Assembly: GCA_045627045.1 (NCBI GenBank)
Contig: JAZQMY010000051.1
Location: 29,771 to 93,770, forward strand
Length of the DNA stretch: 64,000 bases
Direction: 5' to 3'
DNA from: Clostridia bacterium
GTDB lineage: Bacteria > Bacillota > Clostridia > HGM11327
In this document: positions 44,212 to 46,059 of the stretch, piece by piece
Layout: the number at the start of each line of letters is the position of its first letter
Numbering within the stretch: position 1 is the first letter of the stretch
Position numbers and translations under genes: made by a program
Notes under the pieces: generated by a model
Told to the model about the DNA's origin: nothing
Database searches by the model: none
What the model saw: only the letters and a program-made list of their open reading frames with translations

Positions 44212-46059
44212 TCAGAATTTTATCACCTTTATTCTGCTTTTATTGTTCATATAACAGAAAAGCTGTGATGAAAGCTCCTTTGCTTCTTCGAGTATTACGG
44301 CTCCCGAGTTCTCCGAAGCAAACGGAGAATGAAAGAGCGCGGAGCAGGGCTTTTGCTTTGCGATTGCGGCGTAATACGGCTTGTTCATTCTGAATTCGCC
44401 AAGAACGATGTCCTCAACTGGGTATTTTTCACCGAATGAGATAAGTCTGTCGGCAAGATCATAATACTTTTCGGCAGGCACGATGGGTGCAAGGATCGGC
44501 TCCATGCAGAATCTGATCCTCCAGCCCCTTGTGGCGAGCGCTTCTGCGGCAGAAAGCCTTGCTGTGACAGGCGGTGATGATGTTTCAAAGCGTCTGTCGG
44601 CACCGTCAGGGGAGACGGTGTAGGCGATTATCACGTTCTTTACCGGATCACGGTCAAAAGGCAGTATGCCGGCGGACTTTGTTCTTATTTCAAATGTGAT
44701 ATTTGAGTGCTTCTCTGCAAAGTCGAGCCACTTTTCCACAGTGCCGAGAATGCCGTCAAGCGCCACGATGTCTGAATCGTAGGAGCAGCAGACAAGCATG
44801 GGCGAGCCGTCATCGACGTCTTCAATGGCTGAGAAGAAGTCCCGGGTGTTGATGAATGCCGTTATGAATGAAGAGGGATACATTCCCTGAAGATAACAGT
44901 ATTCGCAGGAGTAGACGCATCCGAGAACCGTGGAGCAGTAGTAGAACTTGTCGAAGCCGAAAGCATTGCAGTAGTCGGAGCCTTTGTAGATAAGAGTGCC
45001 GTCAGCCTTTGCAAGGATGAGGTTCCTGGCGCAGCTTTGGGCGGCTTTATCCTGCTTCGGTCTGTTGAAAACGGACTTGTAGTGCGGGACCGGGACGACC
45101 TGTGTGCCGGGAAGCCGTGCAAGGATGCTTGATACCTCGGGAGAATCAAGGATATCTTTTTCAACGTAGGTGTGCCTGAAGAATGAGCTCCTGCGAAGCT
45201 CCTTCCTGGGGGCATCGTCAGAATTGCAGGAAATACAGTTCACGTTTGATTCAATATCCGAGAGAAGCTTTGAAAAAATGGCTGCAGAGCCTTTCTTGCC
45301 GTGCTTTTCTGGAGCAGGAACAAGAGAAATATCAGGAACGGAATTGTAGGTTACGAATGAATTATGTACAGCTTCTGTGAGCTGATGCTTCATTGTAAAT
45401 GAGATGTCAAGCTTTGCGGAGATTTTATCGGCAACGGAGGCAATGATTCCGGGAACTTTTTCAGGCTCACGGGAGCAGTATTCCGAGAAGAGCCTTATAA
45501 ATGAGAACACATTGTCCATTCCTTTTGAGAGTGCTTCAGATAAGTCAGCCAAAGAGACGACTTCGCCTTTTGAGGCATTATCGGATATGATTTTTACCGA
45601 CTGAACTCTGTCCGCAGAGAGGAACATCCTTGCGGCAGAGGCAAAGCCGTAGGCTTCTTCGTCCGTTGCCGTGTTTTTTTCTTCGGGAGCGCCCGAAACG
45701 ATGCTGTCATATGTCCGAAGACCACATTCTCTGAGCCCGTGGGGAAAAAGAATATCAGGCACTATAGCCTTTCCGGAGGAGGCAGAGAGGAATTCGTTGA
45801 TTACCACGGCCGTGCCGCTTGTGATTGAAGAATCAAGGCTTCCTGCCGAGCCGATATTCAAAGCACCTGTGATATTTCCTGCCTTTGTAATGGCGTATGC
45901 TGTGACTGAGGCAGCGTTTTCTCTTCCGATTCCCGTGAGCGCAAGCAAAATATTGCCGTCCGACCACATACGGGCAACGGAGTCATTTGTGCTTTTCAGT
46001 GAAAATTCTTTGATTACGGGTGATGCCTCGGGCATCATTGCGGCGGTGATGAGTATCAT
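44212..46059 (-). CDS. Fusion protein: N-terminal PNP_UDP_1-family nucleosidase domain (MTA/SAH-nucleosidase or futalosine-hydrolase-like), C-terminal spore-photoproduct-lyase (SPL) family radical SAM domain
   Basis: N-terminal ~235 aa aligns by eye to MtnN (MILITAAMMPE ~ MKIGIIGAMEEE; ALNIGSAGSL ~ INTGSAGGL; IISDNAS ~ AISDVAD). The C-terminal ~330 aa carries the SPL-family CxxxCxxC-YLQGMY radical-SAM motif (GCVYSCEYCYLQGMYP) and the N-terminal HYKSVFNRP block. Single uninterrupted 615-aa ORF; the start lies 1 nt after the rho stop. Confidence 0.7.
   Translation of the reverse strand: MILITAAMMPEASPVIKEFSLKSTNDSVARMWSDGNILLALTGIGRENAASVTAYAITKAGNITGALNIGSAGSLDSSITSGTAVVINEFLSASSGKAIVPDILFPHGLRECGLRTYDSIVSGAPEEKNTATDEEAYGFASAARMFLSADRVQSVKIISDNASKGEVVSLADLSEALSKGMDNVFSFIRLFSEYCSREPEKVPGIIASVADKISAKLDISFTMKHQLTEAVHNSFVTYNSVPDISLVPAPEKHGKKGSAAIFSKLLSDIESNVNCISCNSDDAPRKELRRSSFFRHTYVEKDILDSPEVSSILARLPGTQVVPVPHYKSVFNRPKQDKAAQSCARNLILAKADGTLIYKGSDYCNAFGFDKFYYCSTVLGCVYSCEYCYLQGMYPSSFITAFINTRDFFSAIEDVDDGSPMLVCCSYDSDIVALDGILGTVEKWLDFAEKHSNITFEIRTKSAGILPFDRDPVKNVIIAYTVSPDGADRRFETSSPPVTARLSAAEALATRGWRIRFCMEPILAPIVPAEKYYDLADRLISFGEKYPVEDIVLGEFRMNKPYYAAIAKQKPCSALFHSPFASENSGAVILEEAKELSSQLFCYMNNKSRIKVIKF

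What the first reader, a model, noticed from the sequence alone, without database searches (positions are those of the whole stretch)
44212..46059. Single-ORF fusion of an MTA/SAH-nucleosidase-like domain with a complete SPL-family radical-SAM enzyme, translationally coupled to rho
The protein has two complete domains.
- N-terminal ~235 aa: a nucleoside phosphorylase/MtnN (Pfs)-like fold. Counterparts of the catalytic Glu and the ISD motif appear present (AAMMPEAS, IISDNAS).
- C-terminal ~330 aa: a full spore-photoproduct-lyase-family radical SAM domain with the diagnostic GCxxxCxxCYLQGMY cluster (GCVYSCEYCYLQGMYP).

Established knowledge: MtnN hydrolyses 5'-deoxyadenosine, the inhibitory by-product of every radical SAM reaction. 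Futalosine hydrolase (MqnB) is a member of the same fold and acts in a pathway with radical SAM enzymes.

Inference: a covalent fusion suggests a self-detoxifying radical SAM enzyme, or a nucleoside-modifying enzyme whose substrate or product is handled by the nucleosidase half. Non-sporulation SPL paralogues have no assigned function. The start codon lies 1 nt after the rho stop with no promoter between them, and the gene is followed by an M23 cell-wall peptidase, which hints at a housekeeping or envelope-related role.

I do not recall this domain architecture being described.
Basis: partly seen in the sequence, partly recalled or inferred. Interest (0 to 1): 0.85.

Follow-up and report, generated by a model that had tools for sequence, protein, structure and literature searches.

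The report
Nucleosidase fused to SPL-like radical SAM enzyme
This gene is a real one-protein version of a widespread but unstudied enzyme pair, an adenosine-type nucleosidase and a relative of the DNA-repair enzyme spore photoproduct lyase, found from gut Clostridia to Fusobacterium and Leptospira; the fusion shows the two enzymes work together, but on what substrate is still unknown.

Summary
Window 44212-46059 (-) is one intact 615-aa ORF with three parts:
- an MTA/SAH-nucleosidase-fold domain (aa 1-168, catalytic Glu/Glu/Asp kept);
- a ~120-aa helical bridge with no Pfam family;
- a complete SPL-fold radical SAM domain (aa 290-615, CxxxCxxC).

The fusion is not an artefact, and it is not rare.
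- At least 568 species genomes carry relatives of this SPL-like clade.
- Among 88 non-redundant loci, 34 are fused. About 45 have the same N-protein as a separate gene directly upstream, overlapping the SPL-like gene by ~26-35 nt.
- Fused forms sit in at least 6 separate clades.
- A short-chain dehydrogenase gene follows within 300 bp in 60 of 83 loci, though not in the window's clade.
- The cassette also occurs in Leptospira interrogans, Fusobacterium, Opitutales and Dictyoglomaceae.

It is neither SplB nor MtnN/MqnB: all curated cutoffs are missed by a wide margin, and SPL Cys140 aligns with an invariant Tyr.

The rho coupling is real but confined to one clade. The M23 neighbour is incidental.

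I found no published function. The best guess is that the nucleosidase removes adenine from the 5'-deoxyadenosyl product of the radical SAM half. That product is probably a substrate adduct (MqnE/MqnB or HpnH/HpnG logic), or else free 5'-deoxyadenosine.

The parts
44212..46059 (-). Whole ORF, 615 aa (stop codon at 44212-44214): fused nucleosidase / helical bridge / SPL-like radical SAM protein
45556..46059 (-). aa 1-168: MTAN/MqnB-like alpha/beta nucleosidase domain (PNP_UDP_1 superfamily)
46024..46041 (-). A7-M-M-P-E11-A12: Glu11, the equivalent of the water-activating Glu12 of MTAN (E. coli numbering, from my own knowledge); Glu in 99% of 192 family N-domains
45652..45663 (-). D133-E134-E135-A136: equivalent of MTAN Met173-Glu174 (ribose-binding Glu). 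The window has Glu134 where 97% of the family has Met.
45580..45594 (-). K156-I-I-S159-D160: equivalent of MTAN Arg193..Ser196-Asp197 (Asp is the catalytic acid). Conservation: K 98%, S 94%, D 99%.
45754..45759 (-). P101-D102: family-specific conserved loop motif (P 97%, D 84%). It lies just before a ~35-residue stretch of MTAN (containing the 'SGDxF' strand) that has no counterpart in this family.
45193..45555 (-). aa 169-289: helical bridging region (helices 170-196, 204-217, 221-238, 255-270) plus linker. It has no Pfam family. In split systems it travels with the N-protein; in some ~420-445-aa forms it travels with the SPL-like protein.
44215..45192 (-). aa 290-615: complete SPL-fold radical SAM domain
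44893..44919 (-). C381-VYS-C385-E-Y387-C388-Y389: [4Fe-4S] CxxxCxxC triad. The two Tyr correspond to Geobacillus SPL Tyr96 and Tyr98. All five residues are invariant in 43 sequences.
   Evidence: PMC3467042
44770..44790 (-). C424-C-S426-Y427-D428-S-D430: aligns with the SPL 'AAC(140)TSD' segment. Invariant Tyr427 occupies the Cys140 position; Cys424 is at least 90% conserved.
44968..44970 (-). Cys364: invariant Cys 17 residues before the first cluster Cys. It may be the counterpart of clostridial SPL Cys77, but this is not established.
   Evidence: PMC3467042
44389..44394 (-). F556-R557 (invariant): Arg557 aligns with SPL Arg273
   Evidence: PMC3467042
46057..46063 (-). rho stop TGA, 1 nt, then the ATG of the fusion gene: a tight junction with no room for a promoter
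   Evidence: rho is directly upstream in 6/6 loci of this clade only.
46061..47533 (-). rho (Rho_N, Rho_RNA_bind, ATP-synt_ab): upstream gene, co-oriented
47570..47598 (-). Promoter-like site (TTGACA-17-TATCAT, 11/12) upstream of rho. It is the likely promoter of the rho-fusion transcript; this is a consensus match only.
44134..44162 (-). Promoter-like site (TTGACT-17-TATAAT, 11/12) between the fusion gene and the M23 peptidase gene. It suggests that the M23 gene is transcribed separately.

Best explanation
The ORF is the single-polypeptide form of a conserved pathway module. The module consists of an MTAN/MqnB-like N-ribosyl hydrolase with a helical docking region and an SPL-fold radical SAM enzyme. 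In about three quarters of loci an SDR oxidoreductase is a third partner.

Proposed mechanism:
1. The C-half binds a [4Fe-4S] cluster through Cys381, Cys385 and Cys388 and reductively cleaves SAM to the 5'-deoxyadenosyl radical.
2. That radical adds to an unsaturated carbon of an unknown substrate, probably a small polar molecule rather than DNA. This gives a 5'-adenosylated adduct. The adduct radical is quenched by the conserved Tyr/Cys residues.
3. The N-half hydrolyses the adenine-ribose bond of the adduct using Glu11, Glu135 and Asp160.
4. Where present, the SDR reduces or oxidises the unmasked ribosyl carbonyl.

This is the logic of MqnE->MqnB (aminofutalosine) and HpnH->HpnG (adenosylhopane).

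Shown: the two folds, the conservation of the catalytic residues, and the obligate genetic coupling of the two enzymes.
Inferred: the order of steps, adenosylation rather than H-abstraction, the role of the SDR, and every aspect of the substrate.
For: Coupling of the two enzymes:
- The N-protein (with its bridge) is either fused to the SPL-like enzyme or encoded directly upstream of it, overlapping by 26-35 nt where the source gene calls are available. The counts are 34 fused and ~45 split among 88 non-redundant loci.
- 5 of 6 distant stand-alone N-proteins sampled are also followed by an SPL-like gene: L. interrogans, a Caldicellulosiruptor-type locus, Tepidibacillus, Dictyoglomaceae and Brevinematia.
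- Fused forms lie in at least 6 separate clades of the SPL-domain tree.
- pTM 0.90 for the two-domain model is consistent with a defined inter-domain arrangement; no contact or PAE data were available.

The N-half is catalytic: over 192 N-domains, Glu11 is 99% conserved, Asp133 99%, Glu135 99%, Lys156 98%, Ser159 94% and Asp160 99%. These align with the MTAN catalytic residues.

Adduct rather than by-product:
- From established knowledge, the two known dedicated PNP_UDP_1 partners of radical SAM enzymes (MqnB, HpnG) both act on adenosylated adducts.
- The futalosine-hydrolase model is the NCBIfam family matched by the most N-domains (29 of 30), though far below its cutoff.
- The MTAN segment carrying the 'SGDxF' strand is deleted. 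From my own knowledge of MTAN structures, that strand helps form the purine and 5'-substituent pocket. A family-specific Pro-Asp loop is conserved just before the deletion.
- An SDR gene lies within 300 bp downstream on the same strand in 60 of 83 loci. That fits processing of a ribosyl aldehyde.
- In Tepidibacillus a squalene-hopene cyclase gene lies ~620 nt after the cassette. This is a single anecdote.
Against: - No substrate candidate emerged. Apart from the SDR, no neighbour is conserved across lineages.
- No riboswitch was found in 16 loci.
- SPL itself works by H-abstraction, and this family keeps the SPL Tyr96/Tyr98 and Arg273 equivalents. SPL-like H-abstraction chemistry is therefore at least as natural as radical addition.
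- The window's own clade, the Opitutales and several other loci lack the SDR.
- All similarity to MqnB or HpnG is below the curated cutoffs.
- The preference for the futalosine-hydrolase model over the MtnN model is weak.
- Nothing here distinguishes an adduct from free 5'-deoxyadenosine as the nucleosidase substrate.
Confidence: 0.35

Rival explanations
1. By-product scavenging. The SPL-like half uses SAM stoichiometrically as an H-abstracting oxidant on its substrate. The N-half hydrolyses the released, inhibitory 5'-deoxyadenosine to adenine and 5-deoxyribose. The SDR may then reduce or oxidise 5-deoxyribose.
For: - The MTAN catalytic residues are conserved at 94-99%.
- SPL-type H-abstraction residues are retained.
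- From established knowledge, 5'-deoxyadenosine inhibits radical SAM enzymes and MTAN relieves the inhibition; 5-deoxyribose itself needs disposal (PMC6079011, listed).
- The tight coupling is compatible with this reading.
Against: - From my own knowledge, I know of no other radical SAM family with a dedicated or fused 5'-dAdo nucleosidase.
- Housekeeping MtnN is expected in many of these organisms, e.g. Fusobacterium (my own knowledge; not tested here).
- A diffusible by-product does not obviously need a co-evolving docking region and repeated fusions.
- The MTAN pocket segment is remodelled, with a ~35-residue deletion.
- The near-obligate SDR partner is explained only indirectly.
Confidence: 0.27
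2. Nucleoside catabolism or salvage (QueK/QueL logic). The true substrate is a modified purine nucleoside. The N-half releases its base or sugar, either before or after the radical SAM half transforms it, and the SDR finishes the sugar or base conversion.
For: - The SPL active site is built to hold nucleosides (PMC3467042).
- Many conserved polar and aromatic residues line the SPL-like domain: Y298, E300, Y327, K328, R333, Q336, Q341, E457, R459, K461, E492, R501, R516 and R557.
- There is a precedent for a nucleoside hydrolase plus a radical SAM lyase in queuosine salvage (PMC11570991 and PMC12632869).
- The cassette is common in gut, rumen and host-associated bacteria.
- CmpB (PF06541) lies downstream in 8 loci. 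It is listed as an untested candidate transporter of queuosine precursors (PMC11130926).
Against: - No transporter, kinase or phosphorylase is conserved with the cassette across lineages.
- No preQ1, purine or other riboswitch was found in 16 loci.
- From established knowledge, the MTAN mechanism protonates purine N7, which a 7-deazapurine such as queuosine lacks.
- QueK belongs to a different fold (IUNH, IPR023186).
Confidence: 0.18
3. Nucleic-acid lesion repair. The C-half repairs a DNA (or RNA) photoproduct or cross-link as SplB does, and the N-half is an accessory.
For: - The Tyr96, Tyr98 and Arg273 equivalents are invariant.
- In Fusobacterium a UDG-family gene lies two genes downstream in the same orientation.
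- Proteobacterial splB homologues are predicted SOS genes (PMC3323433).
Against: - The TIGR04070 score is 49.9 against a cutoff of 400.
- Cys140 is replaced by an invariant Tyr at the aligned position.
- The hairpin (aa 581-590) is short. Its tip is E-N-S-G rather than the Arg304-Tyr305 of SPL (PMC3467042).
- The C-domain is near neutral (median pI 6.65, net charge -2 over 80 sequences).
- No Cheo-type LexA box occurs in any of 77 upstream regions.
- The cassette occurs in non-sporulating Fusobacterium, Leptospira and Opitutales.
- A nucleosidase and an SDR have no obvious role in direct-reversal repair.
Confidence: 0.08
4. The N-half is not a catalyst. It is an adenosine- or SAM-binding regulatory or scaffolding domain derived from a nucleosidase.
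For: - Only part of the PNP_UDP_1 model is matched by Pfam (aa 28-92).
- The domain is shortened by ~35 residues relative to MTAN.
- Some ~500-aa relatives carry a degenerate N-domain without the motifs (P0116).
Against: - The catalytic Glu/Glu/Asp and the Ser and Lys are 94-99% conserved over 192 sequences, in an alignment whose mean column identity is only 33%. A purely binding role would not need all of them.
Confidence: 0.07
5. The fusion is an assembly or sequencing artefact that joins two adjacent genes.
For: In the split form the two genes overlap by 26-35 nt, so a single indel could create a false fusion.
Against: - 22 independent full-length clusters at 39-47% identity are collinear over 97-100% of the query.
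- 34 fused loci come from different species, including complete Fusobacterium chromosomes.
- The AF2 model is confident through the junction region.
Confidence: 0.01

Closest known systems
Spore photoproduct lyase SplB (Geobacillus 4FHC; TIGR04070)
   Same: - The CxxxCxxC motif is followed by the Tyr pair (Tyr96/Tyr98 equivalents).
- The 'SD' SAM-binding segment and the Arg273 equivalent are present.
- A hairpin occupies the same position.
   Different: - Sequence identity is only 20%, and the TIGR04070 score is 49.9 against a cutoff of 400.
- Cys140 aligns with an invariant Tyr.
- The hairpin is short and lacks the Arg-Tyr tip.
- The domain has a near-neutral pI.
- The family occurs in non-sporulating bacteria.
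- It is always paired or fused with a nucleosidase, and usually with an SDR.
MTA/SAH nucleosidase MtnN (Pfs) and the short MTAN-like protein CT263 of Chlamydia
   Same: - The Glu12, Met173-Glu174 and Ser196-Asp197 equivalents are conserved (E. coli numbering, from my own knowledge).
- The GxG and NxGxxG motifs are present.
- The domain is similar in size to CT263.
   Different: - Scores are far below the curated cutoffs (21.9 against 169).
- The ~35-residue MTAN segment with the 'SGDxF' strand is missing.
- A family-specific Pro-Asp loop is present.
- A ~100-aa C-terminal helical extension is present.
- The domain is genetically tied to one radical SAM family.
MqnE/MqnB (aminofutalosine synthase and futalosine hydrolase) and HpnH/HpnG (adenosylhopane synthase and nucleosidase)
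   Same: - Each pairs a radical SAM enzyme with a dedicated PNP_UDP_1-family nucleosidase.
- The futalosine-hydrolase model is the one matched by the most N-domains (29 of 30).
- The need for a downstream reduction step resembles ribosylhopane->bacteriohopanetetrol (my own knowledge).
   Different: - No mqn or hpn genes lie nearby, apart from one squalene-hopene cyclase neighbour in Tepidibacillus.
- Scores are below the cutoffs: fut_nucase 39.5 against 124.7, HpnG 14-16 against 187.
- Adenosylation chemistry is not demonstrated here.
QueK/QueL queuosine salvage (C. difficile)
   Same: A nucleoside hydrolase and a radical SAM lyase are encoded in one operon and act in sequence on one nucleoside (PMC11570991, PMC11477304).
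   Different: - QueK has the IUNH fold, not PNP_UDP_1.
- The que operon has a preQ1 riboswitch and an ECF S-component; none was found here.
- The relationship of QueL to the SPL family could not be tested, because the sequence and the paper were not available.
TIGR03886 'spore photoproduct lyase family protein'
   Same: It is another SPL-fold family distinct from true SplB (TIGR04070).
   Different: Clade members score 27-51 bits against a cutoff of 437.55, so this clade is separate from TIGR03886.

Membership tests
Radical SAM superfamily | CxxxCxxC motif providing three Cys ligands to a [4Fe-4S] cluster | tested here: met
   C381-VYS-C385-EY-C388, invariant in 43 aligned sequences and present in all 120 first-round hits.
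Radical SAM superfamily | Partial TIM-barrel radical SAM core fold | tested here: met
   [not shown]
Radical SAM superfamily | Reductive cleavage of SAM | not testable with these tools
   Needs anaerobic biochemistry.
SPL family (Pfam PF20903) | Score above the Pfam gathering threshold | tested here: met
   43.5 bits against 27.
SPL family (Pfam PF20903) | SPL-specific fold elements beyond the radical SAM core (N-terminal alpha/beta subdomain, C-terminal hairpin) | tested here: met
   [not shown]
True spore photoproduct lyase SplB (TIGR04070) | Equivalog model score of at least 400 bits | tested here: not met
   The window protein scores 49.9 bits. Six other clade members score 45.8-73.5 bits.
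True spore photoproduct lyase SplB (TIGR04070) | H-atom-donor Cys (Cys140 in Geobacillus, Cys141 in B. subtilis; Cys77 in clostridial SPL) | tested here: not met
   Invariant Tyr427 aligns with Cys140. Cys424 (at least 90% conserved) and invariant Cys364 lie nearby in sequence, but their equivalence to Cys140 or Cys77 is not established (PMC3467042).
True spore photoproduct lyase SplB (TIGR04070) | Tyr96/Tyr98 next to the cluster motif, and Arg273 | tested here: met
   Y387, Y389 and R557 are invariant and aligned.
True spore photoproduct lyase SplB (TIGR04070) | Long DNA-inserting beta-hairpin with an Arg304/Tyr305 tip, Lys309, and a basic DNA-binding surface | tested here: inconclusive
   The hairpin is short and its tip is E-N-S-G in the window (consensus E-x-G). 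The C-domain median pI is 6.65. No coordinates were available to inspect the surface.
True spore photoproduct lyase SplB (TIGR04070) | Restricted to endospore formers; repairs spore photoproduct | tested here: not met
   The family is present in Fusobacterium, Leptospira, Opitutales and Brevinematia. Repair activity is not testable here.
TIGR03886 SPL family protein | Model score of at least 437.55 bits | tested here: not met
   30.1 bits for the window protein; 26.7-50.9 bits for six other clade members.
PNP_UDP_1 (nucleoside phosphorylase / MTAN superfamily, PF01048) | Score above the Pfam gathering threshold, and the alpha/beta fold | tested here: met
   [not shown]
MTA/SAH nucleosidase MtnN (NF004079, TIGR01704) | Curated score cutoff (169 for NF004079, 73.8 for TIGR01704) | tested here: not met
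   NF004079 gives 21.9-24 bits. TIGR01704 gives 18.5 bits for P0038.
MTA/SAH nucleosidase MtnN (NF004079, TIGR01704) | Catalytic Glu12, Glu174 and Asp197, plus Ser196 and Met173 | tested here: met
   E11, E135, D160 and S159 are aligned with these residues and 94-99% conserved. Position 134 is Met in 97% of the family but Glu in the window protein.
MTA/SAH nucleosidase MtnN (NF004079, TIGR01704) | Purine-stacking Phe151 / Ile152 strand ('SGDxFI') | tested here: not met
   The HMM alignment leaves this ~35-residue MTAN segment without a counterpart. This rests on the sequence alignment only.
Futalosine hydrolase MqnB (TIGR03664) | Curated cutoff of 124.7 bits, and association with mqn genes | tested here: not met
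   39.5-41.2 bits, matching only the first ~100 residues. No mqn genes appear among the conserved neighbours.
Hopanoid-associated phosphorylase HpnG (TIGR03468) | Curated cutoff of 187.1 bits, and hpn gene context | tested here: not met
   14.2-16 bits. The only hopanoid-related neighbour is one squalene-hopene cyclase gene, in Tepidibacillus.
QueL queuine lyase | Sequence membership; preQ1 riboswitch and queK/queT context | tested here: inconclusive
   The QueL sequence and the defining paper were not available. No preQ1 riboswitch was found in 16 loci. No IUNH or ECF-S genes appear among the conserved neighbours.
Anti-phage defence systems (PADLOC) | Match to any defence-system model | tested here: not met
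   No hits for the fusion protein, a split N-protein or the SDR.

The most novel reading that the evidence does not exclude
The module is a third, previously unrecognised radical-adenosylation pathway, after the futalosine and hopanoid side-chain pathways. An SPL-fold radical SAM enzyme attaches the 5'-deoxyadenosyl group of SAM to an unknown substrate. The dedicated nucleosidase strips off the adenine. An SDR then converts the ribosyl group into a C5 polyol or acid appendage. The product would be a new metabolite, cofactor or lipid head-group, made by gut Clostridia, Fusobacterium nucleatum, Leptospira interrogans and Opitutales.
Probability: 0.3. Interest if true: 0.85.

Novelty: new variant of a known kind. 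Interest (0 to 1): 0.6.

Why it matters
I found no described function for this third SPL-like clade, which has about 1,500 representatives at 50% identity with E<=1e-30 (that count may include some other SPL-family proteins).

The fusion in this window, together with the split form elsewhere, is Rosetta-stone evidence. It ties the clade to an MTAN-like hydrolase and usually to an SDR. A vague 'SPL family protein' annotation becomes a defined two- or three-enzyme pathway with a concrete, testable chemical hypothesis.

The module occurs in medically relevant bacteria (Fusobacterium nucleatum, Leptospira interrogans) and in abundant gut and rumen Lachnospiraceae. Its product or substrate may therefore matter for host-associated metabolism.

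If the nucleosidase acts on an adenosylated adduct, this would be a third radical-adenosylation pathway. If it scavenges 5'-deoxyadenosine, it would be, to my knowledge, the first radical SAM enzyme with a built-in by-product disposal unit.

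Tried and rejected
1. QueK/QueL queuosine salvage. The defining paper (PMC6754566) is not held, and later papers do not name QueL's family. No preQ1 or other riboswitch lies upstream of the cassette in 16 diverse loci. I kept this only as a logical analogy.
2. The 198-aa gene upstream of the single-domain homologue in L006 as a detached N-domain: no similarity.
3. An SDR orthologue elsewhere in the 64-kb window: no tblastn hit.
4. A specific function for the SDR: it is a generic classical SDR, below every NCBIfam cutoff.
5. Anti-phage defence: no PADLOC hits.
6. SOS or LexA control: no Cheo box in 77 upstream regions.
7. Other conserved neighbours. SIR2, CinA, CmpB and a tRNA U5-methyltransferase each occur in only 8-10 loci. 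A MiaB/RimO-like gene follows the cassette in the Opitutales locus examined.
8. Window context: a two-component system, an ABC/FtsX module, and SurA-like and CvpA genes. None is informative.
9. Literature searches for the architecture: nothing relevant.
10. A word-indexed search with the single N-domain sequence returned no hit at all, not even the identical parent protein. The profile search worked.
11. The afdb50 fold library was unavailable.
12. Cluster look-ups gave no source names for the window-clade proteins, and the exact protein is not in the contig index.
13. Sequencing artefact: rejected (see the rival explanations).

Full report
OBSERVATION.
Window 44212-46059 (minus strand) is one uninterrupted ORF of 615 aa. 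Pfam assigns SPL (PF20903; aa 378-573; 43.5 bits, gathering score 27) and PNP_UDP_1 (PF01048; aa 28-92; 32.8 bits, gathering score 25.1). The rho stop codon and the ATG are separated by one base, and a G5+M23 peptidase gene follows.

ANATOMY.
An AlphaFold2 model built on a 43-sequence family alignment is confident throughout (mean pLDDT 93.6, pTM 0.90). The only dip (58) is at residues 281-290. The model has three parts.

- Residues ~169-289 form four helices plus a linker. This region has no Pfam family.

A profile of 30 N-domains aligns end to end with S. aureus MTAN (E=5.7e-12). The alignment places Glu11, (Met/Glu)134-Glu135 and Lys156..Ser159-Asp160 on the MTAN residues known, in E. coli numbering from my own knowledge, as Glu12, Met173-Glu174 and Arg193..Ser196-Asp197. 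A ~35-residue MTAN segment containing the 'SGDxF' strand has no counterpart in this family.

Conservation over 192 fused, split and distant N-domains:

| Residue | Conservation |
|---|---|
| Glu11 | 99% |
| Asp133 | 99% |
| Met134 | 97% (the window protein has Glu, a rare deviation) |
| Glu135 | 99% |
| Lys156 | 98% |
| Ser159 | 94% |
| Asp160 | 99% |

A family-specific Pro101-Asp102 motif is also conserved. The mean column identity of the 30-sequence N-domain alignment is only 33%. Conservation of these residues at that level argues for an active N-ribosyl hydrolase.

In the C-half, the cluster Cys triad, the two Tyr that correspond to SPL Tyr96 and Tyr98, and Arg557 (SPL Arg273) are invariant. 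SPL Cys140 aligns with an invariant Tyr427. Cys424 (at least 90% conserved) and invariant Cys364 lie nearby in sequence (residue roles from PMC3467042).

NOT SplB, NOT MtnN OR MqnB.
Every curated equivalog model is missed by a wide margin:

| Model | Score (bits) | Cutoff (bits) |
|---|---|---|
| TIGR04070 SplB | 49.9 | 400 |
| TIGR03886 SPL family protein | 30.1 | 437.55 |
| TIGR03664 futalosine hydrolase | 39.5 | 124.7 |
| NF004079 MtnN | 21.9 | 169 |
| TIGR03468 HpnG | 14.2 | 187.1 |

The same holds for six other clade members, fused or not. This is a third SPL-like clade with its own dedicated nucleosidase subfamily.

DISTRIBUTION: FUSION AND FISSION.
- The first homology search found about 22 full-length clusters at 39-47% identity. 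It also found Fusobacterium proteins of 623 aa (29% identity, 94% coverage, named 'spore photoproduct lyase family protein') and a group of 640-653 aa. Single-domain proteins of about 340 aa were 34-42% identical to the C-half.
- I classified the ORFs in the 80 best loci, the eight loci fetched earlier and the window, which makes 88 loci after removing redundant copies.
  - 34 are fused. Two of these had been skipped at first only because of masked N runs.
  - About 45 carry a separate N-protein gene (261-339 aa, covering query residues 1 to ~272, that is, the nucleosidase plus the helical bridge). It lies directly upstream of a ~330-360-aa SPL-like gene.
  - A few have only the C-half, or an N-gene located elsewhere in the locus.
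- Where gene calls from the sources are available, the two genes overlap by 26-35 nt. A single indel in that overlap would fuse them. This explains why fused forms appear in at least six separate clades of a neighbour-joining tree of the SPL domains, interleaved with split forms (no bootstrap support was computed).
- An exhaustive profile search of 1.84 billion representatives gave 1,485 proteins with E<=1e-30. About 35-40 of the best 150 are full-length fusions.
- That search also revealed forms of ~420-445 aa that match only the helical bridge plus the SPL domain, which is a different fission point. It also showed forms of ~500 aa, and P0116 and P0140 of that size lack a recognisable nucleosidase domain.
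- A profile search with the N-protein found stand-alone relatives in Leptospira (including L. interrogans), Caldicellulosiruptor, Tepidibacillus, Caloramator, Dictyoglomaceae, Brevinematia and others. The sources name them 'phosphorylase', 'nucleoside phosphorylase' or 'hypothetical'.
- In 5 of 6 of these distant lineages sampled, the next gene is an SPL-like gene.

The nucleosidase and the SPL-like enzyme are therefore an obligate pair.

THIRD PARTNER AND CONTEXT.
- Clustering all flanking ORFs showed one further conserved neighbour: a classical SDR of ~232-250 aa. It is present in 62 of 83 loci, lies within 300 bp downstream in 60 of them, and is always on the same strand. It is also present in L. 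interrogans and Tepidibacillus.
- The SDR is generic, below every NCBIfam cutoff.
- The SDR is missing next to the cassette in the window's clade, in the Opitutales and in a few other loci. No homologue of it exists anywhere in the 64-kb window.
- Other neighbours (SIR2, CinA, CmpB, a tRNA U5-methyltransferase) each occur in only 8-10 loci.
- In Tepidibacillus a squalene-hopene cyclase gene follows the cassette after ~620 nt. This is one case only.
- No riboswitch precedes the cassette in 16 loci. No LexA box occurs in 77 upstream regions. There are no PADLOC hits.

THE RHO AND M23 CONTEXT.
rho lies directly upstream in all six loci of the window's clade and in none of the other loci. A strong promoter-like site lies upstream of rho (47598-47570). 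Only a weak promoter-like match (9/12, at 46128-46099) falls between that site and the fusion gene's ATG, and it lies inside the rho coding sequence. Another 11/12 promoter-like site lies between the fusion gene and the M23 gene (44162-44134). The M23 gene is a neighbour in only two of the six clade loci. Co-transcription with rho is therefore plausible but specific to this lineage, and the envelope hint has no support.

MECHANISM.
Shown:
- the two folds;
- conserved catalytic residues in both halves;
- genetic coupling strong enough to survive or recur as a fusion many times;
- a frequent SDR partner.

Inferred: the nucleosidase acts on the adenosyl species coming out of the radical SAM half. 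I see two variants.

1. The radical SAM half adenosylates its substrate, and the nucleosidase removes the adenine.
   - This is what the two known dedicated PNP_UDP_1 partners of radical SAM enzymes do (MqnB after MqnE, HpnG after HpnH; established knowledge).
   - It gives the SDR a natural role on the unmasked ribosyl carbonyl.
   - It fits the remodelled MTAN pocket.
   - It fits the observation that the futalosine-hydrolase model is the one matched by the most N-domains (29 of 30).
   - This is simpler and fits the SPL-type H-abstraction residues.
   - It does not explain why only this radical SAM family needs a dedicated, docked partner.

I put variant 1 at 0.35 and variant 2 at 0.27. I put a nucleoside-processing pathway of the QueK/QueL type at 0.18, SPL-like nucleic-acid repair at 0.08, a non-catalytic N-domain at 0.07 and an artefact at 0.01. 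The substrate is unknown.

Several points argue against DNA as the substrate:
- the near-neutral C-domain (median pI 6.65);
- the short hairpin without the Arg-Tyr tip;
- the replacement of Cys140;
- the absence of LexA boxes;
- occurrence in non-sporulating bacteria.

NOVELTY.
The domain architecture is in the public databases. Some clusters carry precomputed Pfam pairs PF20903+PF01048, and RefSeq names the Fusobacterium protein after its C-half only. I found no paper on the architecture, the split pair or the three-gene cassette in the searchable library. Most subscription-journal literature is not covered by that library. I class the finding as a new variant of a known kind: a radical SAM enzyme with a dedicated nucleosidase.

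LIMITS.
- No model coordinates or PAE were available, so the geometry between the two active sites and the true occupant of the Cys140 position are unknown.
- Whole genomes could not be scanned for mtnN co-occurrence.
- The tree has no support values.
- Promoter and terminator calls are consensus matches only.

Noticed in passing
window 45658-45660 (codon 134 of the ORF): The window protein has Glu134 (DEEA) where 97% of 192 family N-domains, including its closest relatives, have Met (DMEA). This Met corresponds to MTAN Met173. The substitution is rare and may alter the specificity of the pocket.
   Followed up: partly
L089 6848-6876; L090 6809-6840; L091 6797-6831; L092 6809-6840; L094 6788-6813: In split systems the N-protein gene and the SPL-like gene overlap by a recurrent 26-35 nt in different frames. 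This suggests translational coupling. It also means a single indel could create the fusion, which may explain the repeated independent fusions.
   Followed up: partly
L091 9162-11027 (Tepidibacillus infernus): A squalene-hopene cyclase gene lies ~620 nt downstream of the N-protein/SPL-like/SDR cassette on the same strand. This is reminiscent of the HpnH/HpnG hopanoid side-chain pathway, but it is a single occurrence.
   Followed up: no
P0163, P0174, P0186, P0188, P0191, P0194, P0207, P0211, P0215, P0217: Proteins of ~420-445 aa match only profile positions ~196-608, that is, the helical bridge plus the SPL domain without the nucleosidase. The helical region can therefore travel with either partner, which marks a second fission point.
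   Followed up: partly
P0116, P0118, P0140; L055 7485-8996; L076 7512-9026: Variants of ~500 aa carry an N-terminal extension. P0116 has lost the nucleosidase catalytic motifs, and Pfam finds no PNP_UDP_1 domain in P0140. This looks like a degenerate N-domain.
   Followed up: partly
L005 10673-12387; L008 10752-11945, and similar loci in 8-10 genomes: SIR2-like, CinA-like and CmpB (PF06541) genes follow the SDR in these loci. PF06541 is listed as an untested candidate transporter of queuosine precursors in PMC11130926.
   Followed up: partly
L093 3626-4483 (Gammaproteobacteria MAG): Here a stand-alone N-protein homologue is not followed by an SPL-like gene. Instead a 212-aa protein with no Pfam match and an M20 peptidase follow. 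This is the one exception among the six distant lineages sampled.
   Followed up: no
window 46061-47533 (-): The rho ORF as listed (490 aa, TTG start) begins with an odd hydrophobic stretch before 'MSESKS...'. The true start is probably that internal Met at residue 19. The protein has an Ala/Pro/Glu-rich low-complexity insert between the Rho_N domain and the RNA-binding domain.
   Followed up: no
window 42515-44083 (-) and 44134-44162: The G5+M23 peptidase gene downstream of the fusion gene has its own strong promoter-like site (TTGACT-17-TATAAT). It is probably a separate transcription unit.
   Followed up: partly
window 36242-40846 (+): This stretch encodes a response regulator, a histidine kinase, an ABC ATPase and a 679-aa FtsX-type permease. 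The layout resembles peptide-antibiotic sensing and resistance modules of Firmicutes. It is unrelated to the finding.
   Followed up: no
window 48905-51334 (+), 52096-52968 (+) and 41967-42455 (-): Several sizeable ORFs (450, 353, 290 and 162 aa) have no Pfam match at E<=0.001.
   Followed up: no
L002 10604-11983 (Fusobacterium): In Fusobacterium the cassette (fusion gene plus SDR) is followed in the same orientation by a metallo-beta-lactamase-fold gene (Lactamase_B / Apyc1-like) and a UDG-family gene. This was seen only in that genus.
   Followed up: no
(tool behaviour): The word-indexed homology search with the single N-domain sequence (window aa 1-275) returned no hit at all, not even the identical parent protein P0001. 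The profile search with A2 returned 229 hits. Negative results from the single-sequence mode should not be trusted for this kind of query.
   Followed up: yes
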